Below, piece after piece: positions 10,944 to 53,794 of a DNA stretch of 53,794 nucleotides. The stretch's first letter is position 1. Every line of letters starts with the position of its first letter. The notes beneath the pieces are model-generated. The model did not search any database. It was not told the origin of the DNA and saw only the letters and a program-made list of their open reading frames with translations. Both the position numbers and the translations under genes were made by a program. Source of the DNA: a virus (lineage: Duplodnaviria; Caudoviricetes); the IMG/VR virus record IMGVR_UViG_3300015360_000054, positions 1 to 53,794 of that record, one strand, 5' to 3'.

Positions 10944-13210
10944 TAGAAGCTAAACCTAGTCGCTCAGATTATGCAAGTGCATTCTCATTCGAGTTTGACC
11001 GGGTAGCTCTCTGCCCCGATCCTAGTATTAAAAAAATTCTTAAGAAGGATGTTACTTTAGATCATAAAGTAGCAGATGACTATGACTGGGTAATCCTAGT
11101 AGGGTCTGAAGCAGTTAAGTTCTTCACTAAGAAAACCTCCGTAATGGATTACGCAGGTAAAGTAATTGACGAGAAATTCCTTGTAACTATCAACCCGGGA
11201 ATGCTAGCATTCAAGCCTGAAGCTAGACCTGTATGGAATAATTCAGTAGCTGAGATAAATAAATATGTTACAGGAAGTAAAACCGCTAGGAAATACGATG
11301 CTTCTGTCTTTAGAGGGATCGAGGATACGCAAGAAGCCTTGGAGTATATTCAAGGAGTTATGGACGCTCCTTACAGATACTTCGCTATCGACTGCGAAAC
11401 TTCTAGCTTATATGTTCGTGACGGGTATCTTCTTGGGGTTAGCATCTGTGGTGCTCCTAATACTGGCGCCTATATCAGTGCTGATTGTATTGATGAAGAT
11501 GTTATTGAGAAGCTTCAAGAACTTCTCGACAAAAAGATAGCAGTACTCCACAACGCAAAGTTCGATATTGCATGGCTGGGTTATCACCTAGGTCTTGTGT
11601 TTCTTAACTTTGAAGATACTATGCTACTGCATTATACGCTAGATGAGCGTCAGGGTATCCACGGTCTTAAGCAATTAGCCCTACAGCATACCGAGTACGG
11701 AGACTACGAGGGGCCTCTATACGAGTTCATTGCAGAATACTCTAAGAAACACGGCATATTAAAAGACGACTTCTCTTGGTCTTATATTCCTTTCGATGTT
11801 ATGAAGGAATACGCAGCTATTGACTCCTGCGTTACATTCTTATTGTATGGCAAATTCAAGCCTGTAGTAGAAGGCAAGCCTAAACTATCTAACGTCTACA
11901 ATAAGATACTTATCCCGGGCGTAGTATTCCTTAATCAGATTGAGCAGAACGGCATACCATTTAGTAGAGAACGCCTAGAGATGGCAGACGGTATTCTTAC
12001 CGAAGCCATCGTAGCTGCCGAGAAAGAACTATTTGAGTACCCACAAGTTGCAAAATTCAAAGAAGATAACAATGGTGAGTTTAATCCCGCTTCAGTACAG
12101 CAACTACGTAAGTTGTTGTTTGACTACGTGGGACTAGAACCAACAGGTATCAAGACTAAGACCACTGAAAAAGATTCTACTAACGTAGAAGTGCTTGAAA
12201 TACTTAGCGAATCCCATGAGATTCCTAAGCTAATTCTTAACCTTCGCAAAGCTAGAAAACTTAAAAGCACCTATATTGATAAAATCAAAAAGGGCTTAGA
12301 TAAAGATGGCAGGCTTCGCGCTAACTTTAACTTACACGGTACAACGTCTGGTCGCCTATCTTCTAGCGGTAAGATTAACATCCAACAGCTTCCTAGGGAT
12401 AACCCCGAAGTAAAAGGATGTATAGCAGCTAGATCCGGCTATAAAATCGTATCCATGGACTTGAAAACAGCAGAAGTCTATGTAGCTGCTGTGTTGTCTG
12501 GGGATACTAAACTACAGGACGTGTTTAAGACTGGTGGAGACTTTCACAGTTCTATTGCTAAGCTAGTGTTTAAACTAACTTGTGATGTAAGCGAAGTATC
12601 TAAACTATTCAAGCTAGAACGTCAAGCAGCTAAAGCAGTTACATTCGGTATCTTGTTCGGTGCTGGTGCAAAACGTGTATCTGCTGAGGTAACAAAAAGC
12701 AGTGGTTCATATTTCTCGGTTCACGAAGCCCAGGAAGTTATCCATGACTACTTCAACACATTCCCTAAACTTAAAATGTGGCTTAAGAAATCAGAAAACT
12801 CTATCAGAGAAAATAGCTACGCATATAGCTTCTACGGACGCAAGCGCCGTCTAAGAAATATCGGTAGCGATAATGGAGGAGTAGTAGCTCATGAAATTAA
12901 GTCGGGCGTCAATTTTCTTATTCAGTCTGTATCTTCTGACATTAACTTACTTGGTGCAATTGAATTACAACGAGAAATTATCGCACGAGGCTTAGACATT
13001 AAAATCTTTGCCCTAGTGCATGACTCGATTGTAGCCGAGGTCAGAGACGATCTTATTGATGAATATAAAGCTATGCTTAAGAAGCATATTCAAGTAGATC
13101 GTGGAATACAGATTAAAGACTTCCCCATTGGCATTGACATTGAGGTAGGTGATGATTACTCCTTCGGAAAGTTTGAGGAAAAGTTTCTCACAGAACCGGT
13201 ACCTGCGTAA
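10925..13210 (+). CDS. polA: Family A DNA polymerase with 3'-5' exonuclease, T5-type
   Basis: DCET, HNAKFD, YAAID, TTSGRLSS, MDLKTAE, RQAAKAVTFG, LVHDS. Confidence 0.96.
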   Translation: MARVLLVEAKPSRSDYASAFSFEFDRVALCPDPSIKKILKKDVTLDHKVADDYDWVILVGSEAVKFFTKKTSVMDYAGKVIDEKFLVTINPGMLAFKPEARPVWNNSVAEINKYVTGSKTARKYDASVFRGIEDTQEALEYIQGVMDAPYRYFAIDCETSSLYVRDGYLLGVSICGAPNTGAYISADCIDEDVIEKLQELLDKKIAVLHNAKFDIAWLGYHLGLVFLNFEDTMLLHYTLDERQGIHGLKQLALQHTEYGDYEGPLYEFIAEYSKKHGILKDDFSWSYIPFDVMKEYAAIDSCVTFLLYGKFKPVVEGKPKLSNVYNKILIPGVVFLNQIEQNGIPFSRERLEMADGILTEAIVAAEKELFEYPQVAKFKEDNNGEFNPASVQQLRKLLFDYVGLEPTGIKTKTTEKDSTNVEVLEILSESHEIPKLILNLRKARKLKSTYIDKIKKGLDKDGRLRANFNLHGTTSGRLSSSGKINIQQLPRDNPEVKGCIAARSGYKIVSMDLKTAEVYVAAVLSGDTKLQDVFKTGGDFHSSIAKLVFKLTCDVSEVSKLFKLERQAAKAVTFGILFGAGAKRVSAEVTKSSGSYFSVHEAQEVIHDYFNTFPKLKMWLKKSENSIRENSYAYSFYGRKRRLRNIGSDNGGVVAHEIKSGVNFLIQSVSSDINLLGAIELQREIIARGLDIKIFALVHDSIVAEVRDDLIDEYKAMLKKHIQVDRGIQIKDFPIGIDIEVGDDYSFGKFEEKFLTEPVPA

Positions 13211-47054: not shown

Positions 47055-48995
47055 TTAAGCGGCAGCGTAACGGCGGCTAATAACGGCTTTTGCACCGTCA
47101 ATAAGCTGGTCGAATCCAACACGCTGAGTAGCAACTAGTTCAAGGTGCTGAGCGCGTGGGATGTACTGGCTTTCTAGTGTCACACCGCGAAGACGTGGTA
47201 CTAGGAAGTTACGAGCGTTAACCGCAACTGCGTGTGGAACAGAGACAGCTTTTGCTAGGAACTCGTCGCAAAGCATTACGCGTGATCCGTAGATATTACC
47301 AACTTGTCCAGTAAGTTTGGTAGCCTCAGCTTGTCCAACGGTATTAACGTCTTTCCATTCTGGGTCGTCAAGAAGGTTGTAATACTCATTCTCGTTAACT
47401 AGGAAGAATAGGTCACGTGGGTCAAGACCGTATTTACCCATTAGCTTACGCATATTTAGGAGGTCTTGTGCAGTTAGCGACTCAGAAGCTAGAGCAGTAC
47501 CAGAAGTAACTACAGAGCTGTTTGCGGTAGCAATAGTTGTAAGACCGTCAAACGATCCAAAAGTAGAGGTTCCGCGTAGCATAGCACGCTCTACCGCACG
47601 TGTGTGCGAACGAACCATTGCCTCTTGGATAAGGGGCATAACGGCAAGAATTGTGTCTTCTTCAGTTTCATTCGCTAGGTAGGAAAGAGACATAAGTTTC
47701 TTGGTAGAAAGGATTTTGCTTCCAAGGTCTACACCGCCGTATGGCGAACCTGCGACATCACCACGCTGGCTAAGGTTACCGTGTGGAGCGTCGTCCGCGG
47801 TGCTAGCTAGTTTCTTGGTAGCGATGAACTCAGCATACCCTGCGTCTGGAGCGATAGGAAGCACCATTGTAGCAGCTGTAAGTTGAATTTCACGGAAAAG
47901 TGGAGCTAGAATAAGTGCGTGCTGAATGTCGCGCTCGATAGAGGTGTTTACGATTGTCTCATAAACAGCGGTTTCTACTGCGGTAACTCCAACGCCGGAC
48001 ATAGAGTTAACTTTTTCAATAATACCTTTACCGTACTTCGTGTCCCAACCTTTTTTAAGGATTGCACCTAGTACAAAAGCGTCACGGAGCATTGGCTCAG
48101 CAGCTTGTTCCCAACCTTTCTGGCTAGCAGACTCGAAAGTGCGCTTAGAGTTCATGAAAGAATTGATTTCGGTTGTTTTTTCTTTGATTTCTGCCTGAAG
48201 AGTTTTGATTGTCTCAGCATTTTCAGATTTGATAGCATCAATTGCTGCAGTCATAAGCACTTGAGTACGATCAGTTACAGAAGTAACTACAGCAGCAGCT
48301 GTTTCCTTGGCATCGGTAGCAGCTTTTGCTACGCGGGCTGCTTCAGCTTTTTCTGCTACAACTTTTGCTTCTGTGGTGTCGTTAGATGCTTTCAGGGCTT
48401 CCTGAATCATCTTTAGAATTTCATCACGTTCCATATTGGATTTTTTTCCTTCCTCGGCCTTTACGGCTTTGGGCTTACCAGATAATTCATCTTCCCCTGG
48501 TAGTTTTGATTTAAATACTTCAAACTCATCTAAGCTGAAGCTCTTTACTACGCTAAACAAAGCACTGTGATTGGCAGGTATTGATACTACCGATACTTCG
48601 TATAATTCAGCGTCTTTAATAAGCAGACCACCAGTTTCCTTCACGTAGTCTGCATCTCGTATTCTAGCGCCTACAGAAAAAGCGGTGATAACACCTTCTT
48701 CAATTAATGCAGCTACCGGGTCAGATTTGCTAATTTTAGCAGTTATCTCTAACCCTTTTTCTACTACTTTAATTTCAGTACATTTTCCAATAGGACGGTT
48801 GCCGTTATGCTGGAACAAAATAATTGGGTTTTTACCGAAGTTGTCTAACCCACCCTTTGTCCACGCTTCTGCGGCTATAATGTCTCCACCGCGATCAACA
48901 TCGCTAGTAGAGGCCATCCCTCTTACGGTGATAAAGCGATCATCTGATACGCCTTTTTCAATAGTAGAGAGAAGTGTAAATAAATGTTTACGCAT
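47055..48995 (-). CDS. Prohead protease fused in frame to an HK97-fold major capsid protein (capsid portion from ATG 48434)
   Basis: Protease motifs GMAS...DR.GD, NPIILFQH, PIG, FSVG, EVSVVSIPAN; then a coiled-coil delta domain and a T5 pb8-like capsid. The ATG at 48995 overlaps the portal stop. Confidence 0.92.
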   Translation of the reverse strand: MRKHLFTLLSTIEKGVSDDRFITVRGMASTSDVDRGGDIIAAEAWTKGGLDNFGKNPIILFQHNGNRPIGKCTEIKVVEKGLEITAKISKSDPVAALIEEGVITAFSVGARIRDADYVKETGGLLIKDAELYEVSVVSIPANHSALFSVVKSFSLDEFEVFKSKLPGEDELSGKPKAVKAEEGKKSNMERDEILKMIQEALKASNDTTEAKVVAEKAEAARVAKAATDAKETAAAVVTSVTDRTQVLMTAAIDAIKSENAETIKTLQAEIKEKTTEINSFMNSKRTFESASQKGWEQAAEPMLRDAFVLGAILKKGWDTKYGKGIIEKVNSMSGVGVTAVETAVYETIVNTSIERDIQHALILAPLFREIQLTAATMVLPIAPDAGYAEFIATKKLASTADDAPHGNLSQRGDVAGSPYGGVDLGSKILSTKKLMSLSYLANETEEDTILAVMPLIQEAMVRSHTRAVERAMLRGTSTFGSFDGLTTIATANSSVVTSGTALASESLTAQDLLNMRKLMGKYGLDPRDLFFLVNENEYYNLLDDPEWKDVNTVGQAEATKLTGQVGNIYGSRVMLCDEFLAKAVSVPHAVAVNARNFLVPRLRGVTLESQYIPRAQHLELVATQRVGFDQLIDGAKAVISRRYAAA

Positions 48996-50184
48996 TTGGT
49001 CCCTCTTTAGGTCTGCCACCCTGTGAGGAGTCAACAGCCGATCCAGCAATGTTTACTGGGATTCTTAGTTCGTCCTGGCCATCAATATCTTCGTAGGCTA
49101 GGCCATTACGAGCTTCGTTTACAGTAATAATTCCGTTGTTCACTAGATTACCGTAGAAGGAAGCTTGTTCTTGTAGTTCCGGCTGAAGGCCGGGAATATC
49201 GTTGTCTGGCAATAGGCGATAAGAGAAGAATCTCTCGAAAGCTTTAAGAACTTTATCCACTAGCGGGATAACTGTCTCGATATAAAATAGTCTTTGGTTT
49301 GGGCGAATGTTGGCATTGTTACCACCTTCCAAAAGGATCGGAGGTATACCAAGCGCTGTTAAGATAGCGTCTCGCTTATTCTTTATTGAAGTTTCAAAAT
49401 CTAATTCCTTAAAGGAAGTGTTCGAAAGCTTGTCTAAATCTAGTCCGCCATCAAGAATCAGGGGACGTTTACCACCATTTGCTGGGCTATACGCACCGAT
49501 CCAGGACTCAATCATTTTCTCTTTAACCTTCTCACTGATGGAGTTAGGCGACTTAAGTACTAGGCCAGGCACTGCACCATTTTCAAAGAATTTATCTTGG
49601 AACTGTAACATGCGTGTAAGAAGTTGCATGTCTAGTAGCACTGGTAGTAGTCGTGGAGTTCCTCGGTAGATATTTTCTGCAGAGTTATCCTTAATATGTA
49701 CAACCTCGGTAGGCGCGTAATTAATAGTCTGATAACGATACCCTTTTATATATTCGGTAGTATCTGTTAAAATTTCCATCCCGCGCGCGGGTACGTGATA
49801 AATATGGGCGCCATCAAAATAAATAAAGGCGTTACCATTAAGTACCATATCGGCGTATAAGAGACGTCTAAACGTAGAGATATCCATAAACGGATTAGGA
49901 TCTGAGTTTAACAATCTCTTAACAGTGGCCTGGCGCAGGCCGGGTTTCTTAGGAGTAATGTTAGACTGATCAATACGGTCGTCTGAGACAATAATATCGA
50001 TCTGGCTAGCAGCATCTACAATCATGTTTACACCGCGGTTCACAATACCAAGTTTTTCGTAGTAAGCCACGAAGTTGGAAGGAACACTAGCAACAGAGGA
50101 TCCGTAATTAAGAGCAATTGTGCGCTGTGCCGGATTTAACTTTGTAAAACCAAGTGCAGATAGAGTTTTTTGTGTTATGCTCAT
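48988..50184 (-). CDS. Portal protein (T5 pb7/HK97-like)
   Basis: VNRGVNMIVD, PNPF, GNAFIYFDG, FFENGAVPG, LGIPPILL, TVNEAR. Confidence 0.94.
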   Translation of the reverse strand: MSITQKTLSALGFTKLNPAQRTIALNYGSSVASVPSNFVAYYEKLGIVNRGVNMIVDAASQIDIIVSDDRIDQSNITPKKPGLRQATVKRLLNSDPNPFMDISTFRRLLYADMVLNGNAFIYFDGAHIYHVPARGMEILTDTTEYIKGYRYQTINYAPTEVVHIKDNSAENIYRGTPRLLPVLLDMQLLTRMLQFQDKFFENGAVPGLVLKSPNSISEKVKEKMIESWIGAYSPANGGKRPLILDGGLDLDKLSNTSFKELDFETSIKNKRDAILTALGIPPILLEGGNNANIRPNQRLFYIETVIPLVDKVLKAFERFFSYRLLPDNDIPGLQPELQEQASFYGNLVNNGIITVNEARNGLAYEDIDGQDELRIPVNIAGSAVDSSQGGRPKEGPNA

Positions 50185-50257: not shown

Positions 50258-51550
50258 CTAGAAGCCACTAAAGCCTGTGGTATGCGTGTAAAGTGCATAG
50301 CGAAGAGCATCAGCCATGTGACTGAACTCGTCATGTTTTGGCTTTTCCACATTGGTTGTTTCGGCCCACTTGTATTGTTCTAGCGTCTTAAGAAGTTCCA
50401 CACAAGATTGATCGACTATTAGGCGATTAGTTTCAAGTATCGAACCAACGTGCGAAATACCATCTAGTACAGACTTCTTTGCGTTAATTGTCGAGATACC
50501 GTAGATTGCCGCGAGGTCGGCGCGGAACTGAGCTGCCGCGGGGTCGGCATATATCATGTCTGCGTCATACTTATCAATTATGGGCTGCATGCCCGCAGCC
50601 TGCGCACGAGTATCTGCTTTCGCGGATAACCTCTCCGCGAAAGCATAGTACGTGTCTGAATTTCTATGATATCCAAGTATCACTAGGGCACATGGATCTT
50701 TATAACCCGCGTCTAGTCCACCAATCATGTCCATACCGGATCTATCCATCTCGGTAAGATCGCGAACACAAGTCTTGAAGTCGAACTGCCAAATACGACC
50801 CTCGAATACGGAAAAGTCAGCCTCATATTCTTGTCTAAATTCGGCAGTACTCATCTCGTTACGAGCTTGTTCTACGTCGTTTAAGTCAGCTCTAGGGTTA
50901 TCCTGATACGTAGCGTGTATAGACGCCCACTGAGGAAACAACGGGTCAAACCCACGTTGGTAGAAGTTATGAAACCAGTTATTACGTCCACGAGGCGTAC
51001 TAATAAAGATCGCTTTAGAATTAGGTTTATCTAGGGTGGGGCGCAAACGAACGTTAAACGCAGTCTCCCCTTCACGTGTTAGCGCAGCTTCGTCGAATAT
51101 AATAAGATCGTAGCTTCTACCAACTACAGAGTCTACCTGCGTAACAGCGCCGATACGGATAGTCGAGCCATTTACTAGCTCAATAAGGTTATCCTTGGCG
51201 TTGTCGCGACGAACCTCAATTCCAAAGAACGCAATTAGCTCGCGCTGCAACTCGAATGAGATCTGTGCTAGTCTGTAGTTAGGAGCCATAATTAGTACCT
51301 GCGAACCAGGTACTAACAAGACTAATTGTCCAATAACGTTAGCAATAAACGTTTTACCAACACGACGAGATATAGCCGCGGTGATAAAACGATATTGTGG
51401 GTCATTGATTGCATTTATAAGGGCAACTTGTGGCGGGTTGGAAGTTTTACCCAACATCGTCATGTATTCTTCTACATCTAACTTAATATAGCGTTTGTCG
51501 CCAAAGTCAACAATGTGATTAGTTAAAATATTATCTCTACTTACTAGCAT
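50258..51550 (-). CDS. terL: Terminase large subunit (T5-like)
   Basis: SRRVGKT, GRSYDLIIFDEAA, ISTPRG.N, FRQEYEADF, GLDAGY.D, SHMADALRY. Confidence 0.95.
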   Translation of the reverse strand: MLVSRDNILTNHIVDFGDKRYIKLDVEEYMTMLGKTSNPPQVALINAINDPQYRFITAAISRRVGKTFIANVIGQLVLLVPGSQVLIMAPNYRLAQISFELQRELIAFFGIEVRRDNAKDNLIELVNGSTIRIGAVTQVDSVVGRSYDLIIFDEAALTREGETAFNVRLRPTLDKPNSKAIFISTPRGRNNWFHNFYQRGFDPLFPQWASIHATYQDNPRADLNDVEQARNEMSTAEFRQEYEADFSVFEGRIWQFDFKTCVRDLTEMDRSGMDMIGGLDAGYKDPCALVILGYHRNSDTYYAFAERLSAKADTRAQAAGMQPIIDKYDADMIYADPAAAQFRADLAAIYGISTINAKKSVLDGISHVGSILETNRLIVDQSCVELLKTLEQYKWAETTNVEKPKHDEFSHMADALRYALYTHTTGFSGF

Positions 51551-51551
51551 T

Positions 51552-51989
51552 TTAGTTTGAATTGTTACCCAGCAGCACTAATTCCCCTTCTTCTTTACGA
51601 CGTTTAACAAGACCGTTAAGTTTCCTACCTCCGGCGAACACGTAACGTTGCATACCTAGATATGCTTTATTATAATTTTTATCTACAAGATGTTTAGCTA
51701 TCTGTGTAGAGCGCCCGTGTAAGGCCCCAGGTCCTAGGTTAAACACAAAGGATACCACACCCTCAAATACAGGCCCTCTAGACATTCCCGTGACAGCCGT
51801 GGCCGCCCAGCAAGCAGCTTTAACGTCGGCGTCAAATAAGGCCTGAGCTTGTTCAAGACTTATTGTACGTCCATTTAGTACATCGTGGCGTGTAACCGTA
51901 GAAATATGTCCCCAGCCGATTGTAGGAACTCCTACTGGGTCAAAATAGGCCTTTAGTCGTAGACCCTCATGTTTTTTGATTAAATTCAT
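51552..51989 (-). CDS. Endolysin, GH24 lysozyme
   Basis: EGLRLKAYFDPVGVPTIGWGH (E-x8-D-x5-T), FNLG, GL.KRR..E; GGAG SD before the ATG at 51989. Confidence 0.93.
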   Translation of the reverse strand: MNLIKKHEGLRLKAYFDPVGVPTIGWGHISTVTRHDVLNGRTISLEQAQALFDADVKAACWAATAVTGMSRGPVFEGVVSFVFNLGPGALHGRSTQIAKHLVDKNYNKAYLGMQRYVFAGGRKLNGLVKRRKEEGELVLLGNNSN

Positions 51990-52542
51990 GATCCCCAACT
52001 CCTATTATGTAGGCATTGCCCTGAGCGGTTATTGTAAATTTACGGCCTATAAAAGTTCCTGATACATTTGTAAAGGGGCTAGTAATAGGTTCTTTTACCA
52101 TCTGACCGTTTTGTGTTGCGTAAACCATCTCATCTGAAGTCGAATAGTCTAGGCCAAATATTGACTCGTTCTTTCCCTCTATGTTGGATGATGGGCCTCC
52201 TAAATACAAAAGTGCATAGCCTCTGGAAACTTTTATATATTCAAACTGGTTTTTAGAAAGGCGCTTTTTAAGAAACATAATGCCTGGGTCTGATAATACA
52301 ACGGTCTTTAATAGTTCTTCGGCGTTTTCTTGCGATTTAACTACTGACAACGCGTTCTCTAGTTCCTTTTGGGCTTTTTCGAGTCTTTCTTCGACGCGGT
52401 GTGAATATGCTACTTCACGTTCTTCAATTTCAGCCTTTTGGCCATGTTCCTCCTTATCGGAGATACGGAGTTGGGCCCAAATCCACGCGATGGCTAGGGC
52501 AATAGGTGTGAGCGTTTTAAGTATGTTTTCTAGATCGTACAT
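51967..52542 (-). CDS. Membrane-anchored coiled-coil protein with a PAS-like domain, in the lysis cassette
   Basis: N-terminal hydrophobic helix, heptad-rich helix, then LLKTVV.SDPGIMFLK..EYIKVS..Y...LG....IEGKN...F...DEMV...MVKEPI. Confidence 0.6.
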   Translation of the reverse strand: MYDLENILKTLTPIALAIAWIWAQLRISDKEEHGQKAEIEEREVAYSHRVEERLEKAQKELENALSVVKSQENAEELLKTVVLSDPGIMFLKKRLSKNQFEYIKVSRGYALLYLGGPSSNIEGKNESIFGLDYSTSDEMVYATQNGQMVKEPITSPFTNVSGTFIGRKFTITAQGNAYIIGVGDHEFNQKT

Positions 52543-52783
52543 AGAACGAGTATCCTGTAACTATGTTAAGGAATATGAACGTCTCTAGTATCCACCATTC
52601 TGAAAGCAAGGCGGTGAGCTCGTGAAATACCGGAGTGTCATATTTTAACATTAGTGCTAATAGCCCTGCAATGGCTACAGTTATATAAGTAATCCCCGAG
52701 CTCGCTGCCCAATACTCCTTACATTTGATTTGGGCGACCCCAGCTAAACATAGTGTGATTATCCATACAAATATCTCTATCAT
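52517..52783 (-). CDS. Putative holin (three hydrophobic segments)
   Basis: 88 aa, three hydrophobic stretches, basic C-terminus RSRKHT, upstream of the endolysin. Confidence 0.55.
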   Translation of the reverse strand: MIEIFVWIITLCLAGVAQIKCKEYWAASSGITYITVAIAGLLALMLKYDTPVFHELTALLSEWWILETFIFLNIVTGYSFYVRSRKHT

Positions 52784-53175
52784 TTGAGAAGTCTCTTCAT
52801 TAGCTCGCCGTAGTTACCGGAGCCAAACTCATTGATTTGAACGTTTGTTTGGCTGCTCGGGATTGAGCTCTTTTCTTCATCAATTCTCATCTGGTGAGCA
52901 AACTTAAGAAGATCTAGTAAGTCTTTTTCTGAATCATAAGATGTTGTGTCGATCTTGGTGTCTATCATTTTATCGAGAACTTGTGCTAGTTTAGACCTGT
53001 TCCGATACCCGGTGTCTAAATATACGTTCGTGATAAATCTTTTAACATCATTTTTTTCGAGAATTTCTTGCACCTGAAATAGAGGCATATCGAGCTGAAA
53101 CGCAGTCTCTTGTGCAGACTGCGTTTCGAGGTACGTTTGTGCCACTACGAGATTTTCGGGTACAATTTTCAACAT
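52780..53175 (-). CDS. terS: Terminase small subunit (T5-like)
   Basis: PE.L.VA..YL, EVK-like DVKRFI..VYLDTGYRNR, S.KD..DLL..AH.MR, NVQIN, NY..LM..L. Confidence 0.85.
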   Translation of the reverse strand: MLKIVPENLVVAQTYLETQSAQETAFQLDMPLFQVQEILEKNDVKRFITNVYLDTGYRNRSKLAQVLDKMIDTKIDTTSYDSEKDLLDLLKFAHQMRIDEEKSSIPSSQTNVQINEFGSGNYGELMKRLLK

Positions 53176-53180
53176 AAGAT

Positions 53181-53224
53181 ATTTTATCACGGAGGATATA
53201 CGTTGTCAAGGGGGATTTTTCCTA
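53181..53224 (-). promoter_or_regulatory. Promoter for terS-lysis-terL
   Basis: GGAAAAAT, TTGACA (53209-53204), 17 nt, TGn-TAAAAT (53186-53181). Confidence 0.82.
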
Positions 53225-53377
53225 TGTGTGTATTAGTTGGATTTGAAAAAAACCCAAAGTTTTACGTGGAGTGGGGTCCGCATGCTTTCTCCTTTAGGTA
53301 GTCTCTTAACCGCCCCTTTCAACCTTAAGTAGTAGTAGTATAATAGCTATTTTTCTAAAAAAACGACCTAAGGGGGG

Positions 53378-53406
53378 TTGACGTGGGCTCGGACCTAGGG
53401 TACATT
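53378..53406 (+). promoter_or_regulatory. Divergent promoter, possibly pre-early
   Basis: TTGACG (53378-53383), 17 nt, TACATT (53401-53406), A-tract upstream. Confidence 0.7.
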
Positions 53407-53431
53407 GGGACATCAACAGAGGACTACCACA

Positions 53432-53659
53432 ATGCAGACCATCCACGAAATGCTCGCCTCGAATGACACCGTTGCCGTGCTCTACCAGAAAGCCGATGGT
53501 AGCATCAAATCCTACCTCCTGACGCACACTATGGCCCCCTCCTATGAGGCGAAGACAGATCGCGTTAAGGTAGCACCGCCTGCCCACCTCGTGAACGCTT
53601 GGGACCTAACCTCCCAGAAGTTCGTTTCCCTGAAGATTGAAGGAATTGTTCAATGCTAG
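53432..53659 (+). CDS. Small SH3/Sm-like beta-barrel (WYL_2/DUF2693-like) protein
   Basis: AGAGGA SD; V.Y.KADGS.K....T...WDL....F.S..I..I pattern. Confidence 0.7.
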   Translation: MQTIHEMLASNDTVAVLYQKADGSIKSYLLTHTMAPSYEAKTDRVKVAPPAHLVNAWDLTSQKFVSLKIEGIVQC

Positions 53660-53739
53660 AAGCTCTTATCCTTGGCTGCGCAAACGGTATGTCTATCGGC
53701 CTTATCGCCTACTTCGTGCTAGACCGGCTTGACCCATGA
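53653..53739 (+). CDS. 28-aa hydrophobic peptide
   Basis: AAGGA SD; MLEALILGCANGMSIGLIAYFVLDRLDP; lies between the upstream ORF and a terminator. Confidence 0.55.
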   Translation: MLEALILGCANGMSIGLIAYFVLDRLDP

Positions 53740-53773
53740 GGCAAAGGGGGCTATACTGCCCCCGCCTTTTTTT
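53740..53773 (+). terminator. Intrinsic terminator
   Basis: GGC..GGGGGC-loop-GCCCCC.GCC followed by TTTTTTT. Confidence 0.7.
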
Positions 53774-53794
53774 GCCTAGCGCCGATGTGAGCGC

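What the first reader, a model, noticed from the sequence alone, without database searches (positions are those of the whole stretch)
51552..52783. Lysis cassette with a TM-coiled coil-PAS-like protein between holin and endolysin: candidate signal-sensing lysis control
Seen: three overlapping genes encode a 3-TM 88-aa protein, a 191-aa protein and a GH24 lysozyme. The 191-aa protein has one N-terminal hydrophobic helix, about 45 aa of charged heptad helix, and a domain whose residue pattern (LLKTVV.SDPGIMFLK / EYIKVS..Y / G....IEGKN..F / DEMV...V.EPI) follows the PAS_4 pattern of sensor kinases. It has no output domain. Known: the T4 holin T uses a soluble GAF-like domain with antiholin RI to delay lysis. 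Inference: this is a stand-alone PAS sensor that tunes holin triggering to a ligand, redox or energy cue.
Basis: partly seen in the sequence, partly recalled or inferred. Interest (0 to 1): 0.8.

Follow-up and report, generated by a model that had tools for sequence, protein, structure and literature searches.

The report
Membrane-tethered PAS protein in phage lysis cassettes
A small phage protein made of a membrane anchor, a long charged helix and a sensor-type (PAS) domain sits next to the hole-forming lysis gene in many uncultured phages, so it may let these phages adjust when they burst their host.

Summary
On the minus strand, TerS, an 88-aa holin-like protein, a 191-aa protein, a GH24 lysozyme and TerL form one tightly packed operon.

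- **Fold:** the 191-aa protein is predicted at pLDDT 95 as one helix (residues 2-70) plus a canonical PAS fold. The best structural match has Z 12.7, and every top match is a PAS or LOV domain.
- **Family:** it belongs to an unannotated family of 49 representative clusters. Twenty-two of the 48 aligned members touch Pfam PAS_4, and none of 5 members tested matches a GenBank phage.
- **Linkage:** relatives fetched by sequence alone gave 15 distinct loci in seven cassette layouts. Thirteen have a small multi-TM protein directly adjacent, 9 have an endolysin (GH24, GH108 or phrog_181) within two genes, and 6 also carry a separate spanin-type pair.
- **Not a spanin:** flank charges are opposite to those of i-spanins (12 of 12 against 7 of 7), which predicts N-out/C-in with a cytoplasmic PAS domain.
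- **Not supported:** heptad periodicity of the helix is no better than chance.

Best reading (0.55): an accessory lysis protein that acts at the holin step. Ligand sensing and any effect on timing are untested.

The parts
52780..53190 (-). Small terminase subunit, first gene of the late operon. The true start is probably the ATG at 53175.
   Evidence: phrog_3802 terminase small subunit, 1.2e-24. Orthologues in L002 and L011 start at MLKII..., which corresponds to window 53175.
53181..53209 (-). Promoter-like site (TTGACA-17-TAAAAT with an upstream TG) directly before the probable TerS start.
   Evidence: 11 of 12 consensus matches, the best site in 51000-53794. This is a consensus match only.
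52517..52783 (-). 88-aa holin-like membrane protein: two clear and one probable TM segment, basic C-terminus, predicted N-out/C-in.
   Evidence: Hydropathy and loop charges. 4 relatives at 64-75% identity. A homologue sits upstream of the PAS gene in type-B loci (hhalign 97.3%, E 2.5e-11). No Pfam or PHROG family.
51967..52542 (-). The whole 191-aa TM / charged-helix / PAS protein, the subject of the finding.
   Evidence: ORF. 7 close relatives. 49 representative clusters. AlphaFold2 pLDDT 95.0, pTM 0.77.
52468..52524 (-). Residues 7-25: hydrophobic N-terminal anchor (ILKTLTPIALAIAWIWAQL). It follows an acidic 6-residue tail and is followed by R/K residues.
   Evidence: KD17 1.64. P13, A17, A19, W20, W22 and Q24 are invariant in the close family. 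Flank charges.
52333..52467 (-). Residues 26-70: highly charged helical stalk (45% D/E/K/R).
   Evidence: Continuous helix 2-70 in the high-confidence model. Heptad periodicity is not above chance.
51982..52323 (-). Residues 74-187: N-cap helix plus PAS core (five strands and helices C-alpha to F-alpha).
   Evidence: DSSP elements. VIA-align Z 12.7 (rmsd 3.5, 115 aligned) to phage VqmA-DPO and Z 12.0 (rmsd 2.0, 93 aligned) to RpfR PAS. 42 Foldseek PDB hits at E <= 1e-3. PAS_4 in 22 of 48 relatives.
51552..51989 (-). GH24 (T4-type) lysozyme endolysin, soluble, with no N-terminal hydrophobic segment. The ORF lister gives a TTG start at 51998.
   Evidence: PF00959 8.9e-27. phrog_7 3.3e-36. ATG start with an AGGAG 9 nt upstream. 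Orthologue start in L011.
50258..51550 (-). Large terminase subunit, downstream end of the cassette.
   Evidence: Terminase_6N 1.7e-15 and Terminase_6C 1.5e-10. 51.6% identical to Yersinia phage phiR2-01 TerL.

Best explanation
The 191-aa gene encodes a single-pass inner-membrane protein. Its short acidic N-terminal tail faces the periplasm. A basic patch, a roughly 45-residue charged helix and a canonical PAS domain lie in the cytoplasm.

It is a dedicated accessory component of the lysis cassettes of uncultured tailed phages of Gram-negative bacteria. It comes in addition to holin, endolysin and spanins.

Most likely it sits beside the holin in the membrane and acts at the holin step. The N-terminal anchor and charged helix would be the working part, as in the 1-TMD N-out/C-in LysF1b lysis proteins of mycobacteriophages. 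The PAS domain would be a regulatory input, either a ligand-binding or a protein-binding module, that shifts when the holin triggers.

Shown: the gene, the fold, the family, the linkage to lysis genes, and co-occurrence with separate spanins.

Inferred: the topology (from a charge rule only), the action on the holin, the direction of the effect (delay or promotion), and any sensing.
For: **1. Fold.**
- AlphaFold2 with 48 sequences gives pLDDT 95.0 and a five-strand PAS core at residues 88-187.
- An independent search of 48,161 PDB chains lists PAS, LOV or PYP domains in the top rows, Z 12.7 to 10.0.
- Foldseek gives 42 PDB hits at E <= 1e-3.
- 22 of 48 family members hit Pfam PAS_4, best E 3.7e-7.

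**2. Linkage.**
Loci were fetched by sequence motifs of the PAS gene alone. Counting the window, they collapse to 15 distinct loci in seven layouts.
- 13 of 15 have a small multi-TM protein directly adjacent.
- 9 of 15 have an endolysin within two genes. The types are GH24 (PF00959), GH108 plus PG_binding_3 (1.3e-28), and phrog_181 (7.6e-48).
- The neighbours outside the cassette change between layouts (TerL, a collagen-like fibre, primase, portal), while the lysis genes stay next to the PAS gene.

**3. Not the spanin.**
- 6 of 15 loci have their own pair of an N-terminal-TM protein plus a lipobox protein in the same cluster.
- PHROG Rz-like hits support some of these. In L015 they are 1.5e-12 and 8.7e-8, in L023 8e-4, and in L022 a weak 0.0073.

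**4. Topology.**
- 12 of 12 PAS-family proteins have a net-negative N flank. 11 of 12 have no K/R there.
- All 12 have 2-6 K/R in the 15 residues after the anchor.
- 7 of 7 i-spanins have a net-positive N flank. These are lambda Rz, T7 18.5 and five from the same loci.
- 51 of 57 family proteins have at most one K/R before the anchor.
- The structural matches are cytoplasmic-type PAS domains such as VqmA, RpfR, LOV, Aer and FixL.

**5. Precedent.**
LysF1b of F1-cluster mycobacteriophages shares several features (bioRxiv 10.64898/2025.12.04.692442; abstract and passages).
- Basic residues follow the TMD, and an extended charged cytoplasmic helix comes after them.
- Its gene overlaps the upstream holin-like gene.
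- Its deletion gives severe lysis defects.

**6. Operon packing.**
Tight gene overlaps in the window suggest co-translation with the holin-like gene and the lysozyme.
Against: - No experiment or computation here shows any effect on lysis, any contact with the holin-like protein, or any ligand.
- The topology rests on the positive-inside rule only. No dedicated predictor was available, and the anchor is only moderately hydrophobic (KD17 0.98-2.08 among the 12 loci).
- The adjacent small TM proteins belong to unrelated families (hhalign probability <= 0.2% between the window's family and those of L022, L023 and L028). This argues against a sequence-specific partner.
- 2 of 15 loci (L017/L020 and L031) show no multi-TM protein directly adjacent. 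Three (L021, L028, L031) show no gene that a family search recognises as lytic, although the DNA held there is short.
- L031 and 6 representative proteins (P0014, P0026, P0030, P0038, P0053, P0057) appear to lack the anchor. Some of these may be truncated gene calls.
- The window protein itself has no Pfam hit at E <= 1.
- Gene neighbourhood in compact phage late operons is weaker evidence than in cellular genomes.
Confidence: 0.55

Rival explanations
1. Structural co-holin without sensing. The protein is a LysF1b-like holin-type effector or obligatory holin partner. Its anchor and charged helix take part in hole formation, and the PAS domain serves only as an oligomerisation scaffold with no signal input.
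For: It shares its architecture with LysF1b, which is needed for efficient lysis and is itself lysis-competent (abstract and passages). PAS domains often mediate dimerisation (general knowledge). It sits next to unrelated small-TM families, which fits a generic membrane role. No cofactor motif was identified.
Against: Many polar or charged positions in the PAS core are conserved: K92, R94, D137, G162, G166 and K168 are nearly invariant across 48 sequences. That is more than a scaffold would need, though it proves nothing. The anchor is weakly hydrophobic for a hole-former. The cassettes already hold a holin-like protein.
Confidence: 0.2
2. Late membrane protein unrelated to lysis, for example superinfection exclusion, an anti-defence sensor, or a regulator of packaging or assembly. 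On this reading it merely rides in the late operon next to lysis genes.
For: In the window it lies between the terminase subunits. In types B and F a primase gene follows it. L028 and L031 show no gene recognised as lytic. The Atlas lists many viral clusters of about 190 aa that carry PAS families, and their context is unknown.
Against: Adjacency to lysis genes persists across seven layouts with different outer neighbours. It also persists across three endolysin types. Random placement would not give that.
Confidence: 0.12
3. Regulator directed at the endolysin. The membrane-tethered cytoplasmic PAS protein would hold, chaperone or release the soluble lysozyme rather than act on the holin.
For: The gene overlaps the lysozyme gene in type A (5 loci). 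The endolysin is soluble and cytoplasmic until the holin fires, since no N-terminal hydrophobic segment is present.
Against: In types D and E the holin-like gene lies between the PAS gene and the endolysin. In types B and F no endolysin is adjacent. The endolysins belong to three unrelated families.
Confidence: 0.1
4. Spanin or spanin substitute. The N-terminal TM and helical stalk would form an Rz-like inner-membrane arm that reaches the outer membrane.
For: A weak PHROG hit to the Rz-like spanin family phrog_1152 (E 0.026, residues 12-75). No lipoprotein (o-spanin) candidate was found in the 53.8-kb window, so the window has no identified spanin.
Against: Flank charges are opposite to those of 7 of 7 i-spanins. 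Separate spanin-type pairs sit beside the PAS gene in 6 of 15 loci. The fold matches cytoplasmic-type PAS domains. The record is only about 48% complete, so spanins may lie in the unseen half.
Confidence: 0.03

Closest known systems
[quoted passage not shown]
   Same: Single N-terminal TMD. Predicted N-out/C-in. Several basic residues right after the TMD. An extended, highly charged cytoplasmic helix. The gene lies directly downstream of, and overlaps, a small multi-TMD holin-like gene in the lysis cassette.
   Different: LysF1b is 124 aa and ends with the charged helix, so it has no PAS domain. Its hosts are mycobacteria, not Gram-negatives. Sequence relatedness was not tested, because no LysF1b sequence was on hand. 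The paper's supplementary figures could not be seen.
T4 lysis-inhibition system: holin T with antiholins RI and RIII (PMC11413866, abstract and passages read)
   Same: Accessory proteins encoded by the phage that bind a holin domain and shift lysis time in response to a signal. RIII acts from the cytoplasmic side.
   Different: In T4 the sensing happens in the periplasm, through RI and the C-terminal domain of T. RI, RIII and T are not described there as PAS proteins. T is N-in with a periplasmic domain, the opposite of the topology predicted here. No structural match to T or RI appeared among the listed hits.
VqmA(Phage) of vibriophage VP882, PDB 7dwm (PMC8284805: search listing and abstract start only)
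   Same: A phage-encoded PAS domain that binds a small molecule. It is the top structural match (Z 12.7, rmsd 3.5, 115 aligned, 15% identity).
   Different: VqmA(Phage) is a soluble transcription factor with a DNA-binding output. It controls the lysis-lysogeny switch (recalled), not the lysis cassette. The protein here has a membrane anchor and no output domain. At 15% identity, common descent is not shown.
Rz-type i-spanins (lambda Rz, T7 gp18.5)
   Same: N-terminal TM followed by a long helical region. Encoded in lysis cassettes. In T7 the spanin genes also lie between TerS and TerL.
   Different: Opposite flank charges. No partner lipoprotein gene embedded or adjacent in the window. The C-terminal PAS domain is of the cytoplasmic type. 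Real spanin pairs coexist with the PAS gene in 6 of 15 loci.
Membrane-associated stand-alone PAS energy sensors such as E. coli Aer (PAS domain 8dik)
   Same: A PAS domain held at the cytoplasmic face of the inner membrane. The Aer PAS domain appears among the structural matches (Z 10.7, rmsd 2.9, 97 aligned, 2% identity).
   Different: Aer carries HAMP and signalling domains and binds FAD (recalled). No such output domain is present here. No flavin-binding signature was examined.

Membership tests
PAS fold superfamily | Five-stranded antiparallel sheet with intervening helices C-alpha to F-alpha, preceded by an N-cap helix | tested here: met
   DSSP of two AlphaFold2 models: H74-84, E88-96, E99-105, H107-114, H126-129, H134-143, E147-154, E161-173, E176-187. 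Z 12.7-10.0 to solved PAS, LOV and PYP domains in a search of 48,161 chains. Z up to 11.6 in the second look.
PAS fold superfamily | Sequence match to a Pfam PAS family at the curated threshold | tested here: inconclusive
   The window protein gives no Pfam hit at E <= 1. 22 of 48 relatives hit PAS_4 at E <= 0.1, best 3.7e-7. L019 and L023 members score 22.5 and 22.4 bits against a cutoff of 23.1.
PAS sensor (functional sense) | Binds a ligand or cofactor, or otherwise transduces a signal | not testable with these tools
i-spanin (Rz-like) | Type II topology: N-in, with a periplasmic C-terminal domain | tested here: not met
   Charge rule: 12 of 12 family members have a net-negative N flank and 2-6 K/R after the anchor. 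7 of 7 i-spanins have a net-positive N flank. This is a rule-based inference, not an experiment.
i-spanin (Rz-like) | Partner outer-membrane lipoprotein gene embedded, overlapping or adjacent | tested here: not met
   No ORF with a lipobox lies within or next to 51967-52542. Where spanin pairs exist, they are other genes in the same cluster.
i-spanin (Rz-like) | Significant profile match to a spanin family | tested here: not met
   Only phrog_1152 at E 0.026, 15.5 bits.
LysF1b-type 1-TMD N-out/C-in lysis proteins | Single N-terminal TMD, N-out/C-in, basic residues after the TMD, extended charged cytoplasmic helix | tested here: met
   (stalk 25-52% D/E/K/R). The topology comes from the charge rule only. 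The feature list is taken from passages of the preprint.
LysF1b-type 1-TMD N-out/C-in lysis proteins | Gene adjacent to a small multi-TMD holin-like gene in the lysis cassette | tested here: met
   13 of 15 distinct loci.
LysF1b-type 1-TMD N-out/C-in lysis proteins | Sequence homology to LysF1b, and a lysis defect on deletion | not tested
   No LysF1b sequence was fetched. The phenotype needs an experiment.
Antiholin (functional class) | Binds the holin and delays its triggering | not testable with these tools
   Needs genetics or biochemistry.
Class III holin (T4 T-like) | N-in, one TMD, large periplasmic C-terminal domain | tested here: not met
   The charge rule predicts the opposite orientation. 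T4 topology is from PMC11413866.
GH24 phage lysozyme (the 148-aa neighbour) | Profile match over the whole domain | tested here: met
   PF00959 8.9e-27, profile positions 1-125 of 125. phrog_7 3.3e-36.
Holin (the 88-aa neighbour) | Small membrane protein with one or more TMDs and a charged C-terminus, encoded next to the endolysin | tested here: met
   There is no family match, and hole formation is untested.

The most novel reading that the evidence does not exclude
The family is a phage-encoded, membrane-tethered, one-component PAS sensor. It would bind a cytoplasmic small molecule or read redox or energy state, and gate holin triggering directly. That would be a ligand-gated lysis clock acting from inside the cell. 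It would be widespread in uncultured phages of Gram-negative bacteria and portable between unrelated holins and endolysins.
Probability: 0.3. Interest if true: 0.85.

Novelty: new variant of a known kind. Interest (0 to 1): 0.72.

Why it matters
The time of lysis sets phage burst size and fitness.

- **Known controls are few.** Signal-responsive control of the holin step is known from only a few systems. T4 RI/RIII is one (PMC11413866, abstract and passages). The search listing names lysis inhibition in ICP1 (PMC7182436) and N4 (preprint 10.1101/2025.11.12.688109). None of these was found to use a PAS domain.
- **What a PAS domain would add.** PAS is the most common small-molecule and redox input module in bacteria. 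A PAS domain wired into the lysis cassette would give phages a general way to couple bursting to the state of the host cell.
- **The family is unexplored.** All named members are 'hypothetical protein'. PHROGs has no significant match. No member was found in 50,697 GenBank phage records.
- **Practical use.** If the reading holds, the family would be a ready-made part for ligand-controlled lysis in synthetic biology.
- **Literature.** Searches found no paper describing a PAS protein in a phage lysis cassette. The term sets were 'PAS domain'+holin+endolysin+phage, antiholin+PAS, 'lysis cassette'+'PAS domain', spanin+'PAS domain', and 'phage-encoded'/'PAS domain'/'lysis timing'. The library lacks most subscription journals.

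Tried and rejected
- **Co-folding with the holin-like protein.** The PAS protein (alignment A1) was co-folded with the 88-aa protein (alignment A5). The result was no verdict (score 0.00, controls not run). It counts neither for nor against binding.
- **tblastn against 50,697 GenBank phage records.** Five family members were tested: the window protein, P0015, P0028, and the L023 and L020 proteins. None matched at E <= 1e-2 for the window protein or 1e-3 for the others.
- **Family profile against PDB sequences.** Nothing significant. The best hit was PilN at E 0.064.
- **The search for related loci with alignments A2, A3 and A4.** I replaced them with degenerate DNA motifs. The motif for the P0029/P0031/P0039 subfamily found 0 stretches. 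One hit (L026) had no PAS-like ORF and was dropped as a chance match.
- **Genome-contig scan (for prophages and host names).** Hosts therefore remain unnamed. The Gram-negative assignment rests on the spanin-type pairs in relatives.
- **Embedded or nearby o-spanin in the window.** None was found. The lipobox scan gave one unconvincing 36-aa ORF at 11243-11353.
- **Heptad test for a coiled coil.** Not above chance in any of 12 members.
- **Cellulophaga phage phi19:1 gp108 as a cultured relative.** It is a Foldseek match to the model (E 9e-7) and a weak profile hit (E 2.2e-5, 19 bits). It follows three small multi-TM proteins, and a lysozyme gene lies 1.5 kb downstream. However, hhalign probability is only 21%, so I kept it as a lead and did not count it as a member.
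Full report
**What is there**

The window is an IMG/VR virus record of 53,794 bases, judged about 48% complete.

- Its right end carries a minus-strand late operon. The operon starts with TerS (52780-53190; phrog_3802, 1.2e-24).
- Next come an 88-aa membrane protein (52517-52783) and the 191-aa protein (51967-52542).
- These are followed by a GH24 lysozyme (51552-51998; PF00959 8.9e-27, phrog_7 3.3e-36) and TerL (50258-51550).
- Portal, a head protease / major head ORF, major tail, tape measure and a J-like fibre follow.

- TerL is 51.6% identical to that of Yersinia phage phiR2-01, and the other best hits are phages of 105-122 kb. I recall these as T5-like.
- The genes are packed tightly. TerS and the 88-aa gene overlap by 4 nt. 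The 88-aa and 191-aa genes overlap by 26 nt. The 191-aa gene and the lysozyme overlap by 23 nt, counted from the probable ATG at 51989. One base separates the lysozyme stop from the TerL start.
- A strong promoter-like site lies just before TerS.
- Lysis genes interleaved with terminase genes have a precedent in T7, whose order is holin, TerS, spanins, TerL.

**The 191-aa protein**

- With 8 sequences AlphaFold2 gave pLDDT 77.9. With 48 sequences it gave pLDDT 95.0 and pTM 0.77.
- The model has one continuous helix (2-70), an N-cap helix (74-84) and a five-strand PAS core (88-187). Four residues remain after the last strand, so there is no output domain.
- Foldseek found 42 PDB matches at E <= 1e-3, and the listed ones are PAS or LOV domains.
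- A second look gave Z up to 11.6 (rmsd 2.8, 112 aligned).
- A search that does not depend on Foldseek covered 48,161 chains. It put phage VqmA-DPO first (Z 12.7, rmsd 3.5, 115 aligned).
- HD-GYP PAS, RpfR PAS-BDSF (Z 12.0, rmsd 2.0, 93 aligned), EL222 and LOV domains followed. Aer and FixL PAS domains came further down.
- The window protein itself has no Pfam hit at E <= 1.
- The stalk is 45% charged, but its heptad periodicity is no better than in shuffles. This holds for all 12 family members tested. 'Coiled coil' is therefore unproven, and a single charged helix is equally possible.

**The family**

- The word-indexed search found 7 relatives at 51-72% identity (alignment A1).
- The exhaustive search found 49 representative clusters at E <= 1e-3, 25 of them at E <= 1e-10. 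All are 122-285 aa except one 996-aa protein.
- I aligned 47 of the 49 with the window protein (A2). I left out the 996-aa P0048 and the 122-aa fragment P0050.
- Nearly invariant positions are K92, R94, L114, D137, G162, G166 and K168.
- 22 of the 48 aligned members hit Pfam PAS_4 at E <= 0.1 (best 3.7e-7).
- Source names, where present, are all 'hypothetical protein'.
- Five members tested found nothing in 50,697 GenBank phage records.
- The ESM Atlas lists many viral clusters of about 190 aa that carry PAS families. These are leads only.

**Genomic context of relatives**

Loci were fetched with motifs of the PAS gene alone, so the context did not bias the choice. One hit, L026, had no PAS-like ORF and was dropped. 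A further motif found nothing.

After collapsing identical contigs and near-identical proteins, 15 distinct loci remain, counting the window. The collapsed sets are L002=L012=L029, L003=L013, L004=L018~L005, L014~L016, L017~L020, L022=L024=L025 and L028=L030.

| Type | Loci | Gene order |
|---|---|---|
| A | window, L011, L002, L003, L004 | TerS, one or two holin-like proteins, PAS, GH24, then TerL or (in L004) a collagen-like fibre |
| B | L014, L015, L019, L021 | i-spanin, overlapping lipoprotein, a 70-75-aa protein, a homologue of the window's holin-like protein, PAS, primase |
| C | L017 | DUF1353, GH108+PG_binding_3, lipoprotein, PAS |
| D | L022, L027 | TerL, structural protein, PAS, 2-TM protein, GH24, TM protein, lipobox protein, portal |
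| E | L023 | DUF1353, PAS, 2-TM protein, endolysin, i-spanin, lipobox protein |
| F | L028 | small 2-TM protein, PAS, primase |
| G | L031 | PAS without anchor, a protein with a C-terminal TM, a multi-TM protein |

Support for the table:
- Type A.
- Type B. PHROG hits for the spanin pair in L015 are phrog_739 (1.5e-12) and phrog_812 (8.7e-8). The holin-like homologue scores hhalign 97.3%, E 2.5e-11. In L021 the DNA held starts after the position where the spanins would lie.
- Type C. GH108 scores 1.3e-28.
- Type D. GH24 scores PF00959 1.8e-10 in L022 and phrog_7 9e-18 in L027.
- Type E. The endolysin is phrog_181 (7.6e-48) and the i-spanin phrog_214 (8e-4).
- Types F and G. Only 1.6 kb was seen for L031.
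- Membership of the divergent PAS genes was checked. The L015 protein matches by BLASTP at 7e-29, L022 by hhalign at 99.3%, and L020 by hhalign at 99.9%.

Counts:
- A small multi-TM protein is directly adjacent in 13 of 15 loci.
- An endolysin lies within two genes in 9 of 15.
- A separate spanin-type pair lies in the same cluster in 6 of 15.
- The adjacent small TM proteins of types D, E and F are unrelated to the window's family (hhalign probability <= 0.2%).

**Topology**

- In 12 of 12 locus proteins the residues before the anchor are net negative, and 11 of 12 have no K/R there.
- The 15 residues after the anchor hold 2-6 K/R.
- Seven of seven i-spanins have a net-positive N flank. These are lambda Rz, T7 18.5 and five from the same loci.
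- Across the 57 family proteins on hand, 51 have at most one K/R before the most hydrophobic window.
- By the positive-inside rule the family is N-out/C-in, which puts the stalk and the PAS domain in the cytoplasm. This fits the cytoplasmic-type PAS matches.
- It remains a rule-based inference. The anchor is only moderately hydrophobic, and no dedicated predictor was available.

**Interpretation**

- The protein is not the endolysin, not the spanin, and probably not the main holin.
- It is a fifth, accessory gene that travels with lysis genes across unrelated cassettes.
- The closest described analogue by anatomy is LysF1b of F1-cluster mycobacteriophages (preprint; abstract and passages).
  - It has one N-terminal TMD and is predicted N-out/C-in.
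  - Basic residues follow the TMD, and an extended charged cytoplasmic helix comes after them.
  - Its gene overlaps the upstream holin-like gene.
  - Its deletion gives severe lysis defects.
- The family here looks like that architecture with a PAS domain added.
- I therefore read it as acting at the holin step, with the PAS domain as a regulatory input (confidence 0.55). The direction of the effect and any sensed signal are unknown.
- The T4 RI/RIII system is the functional comparison, but there the sensing is periplasmic (PMC11413866).

**Limits**

- There is no experimental evidence.
- The co-fold with the holin-like protein gave no verdict.
- Contexts were obtained only for members present in IMG/VR or the JGI metagenomes.
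- The genome-contig scan failed.
- Supplementary files of the papers could not be read. The LysF1b preprint's supplementary figures of family members may bear on the comparison.
- The window holds only about half of the phage, so the absence of spanins in it means little.

Noticed in passing
window 53175-53209 (minus strand): The best sigma-70-like site of the region (TTGACA-17-TAAAAT, 11 of 12, with TG) ends at 53181. That is inside the ORF lister's GTG-started TerS. Orthologues start at the ATG at 53175, so the mRNA for TerS and the lysis cassette may have almost no leader.
   Followed up: partly
window 53405-53659 (+); L002 87-323 (-); L011 1716-1943 (-); L005 176-430 and 1020-1274 (-): A small gene of 75-84 aa is transcribed divergently from TerS and is conserved in the related contigs (MQTIHE...KTDRVKV...). 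L005 carries two tandem copies. It has no PHROG match at E <= 1e-5.
   Followed up: partly
L004 2320-3954; L005 3662-5296: In two relatives a 544-aa protein follows the lysozyme in place of TerL. It has long collagen-like G-x-x and GST repeats and a fibre-like C-terminus. The TM / PAS / lysozyme trio therefore stays together while its downstream neighbour changes.
   Followed up: no
L002 1533-1760 and 1760-2041; L019 10556-10906 and 10899-11252: Two loci carry two consecutive small TM proteins upstream of the PAS gene. They appear to be paralogues, sharing the WW..FLN..TGY-type C-terminal segment. This could be a holin/antiholin pair.
   Followed up: no
L015 8905-9666 and 10436-10648; L019 8686-9516 and 10324-10551: Type-B lysis clusters contain two conserved proteins with no significant Pfam or PHROG match. 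One of 253-276 aa lies upstream of the spanins. One of 70-75 aa lies between the o-spanin and the holin-like gene. No endolysin was recognised in these clusters, so the larger protein is a candidate worth folding.
   Followed up: partly
L031 387-1350 (minus strand): A 154-aa PAS-family protein without the N-terminal anchor is followed by a 173-aa helical protein with a C-terminal TM, and then by a multi-TM protein. This may be a split version of the architecture. Only 1.6 kb of a 43-kb contig was held.
   Followed up: partly
L010 2667-4425 (Cellulophaga phage phi19:1 gp105-gp108, NC_021799 53166-54924): In this cultured Bacteroidota phage a 240-aa protein with a PAS-like predicted fold follows three overlapping small multi-TM proteins. 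It is a Foldseek match to the model (E 9e-7). A lysozyme gene lies 1.5 kb downstream. Sequence relatedness to the family is weak (hhalign 21%).
   Followed up: partly
window 47055-49049 (minus strand): The N-terminal 300 residues of a 664-aa ORF match both the head maturation protease family (phrog_80, 7.5e-36) and the major head protein family (phrog_617, 8.9e-34). This suggests a fused or unusually long head gene.
   Followed up: no
L017 2-640, L020 2292-2849, L023 6311-6700: In the two high-GC layouts a DUF1353 protein lies at the upstream edge of the lysis cluster (PF07087 5e-13 for L020 and 7.6e-9 for L023). PHROGs labels the related family as a tail assembly chaperone.
   Followed up: no
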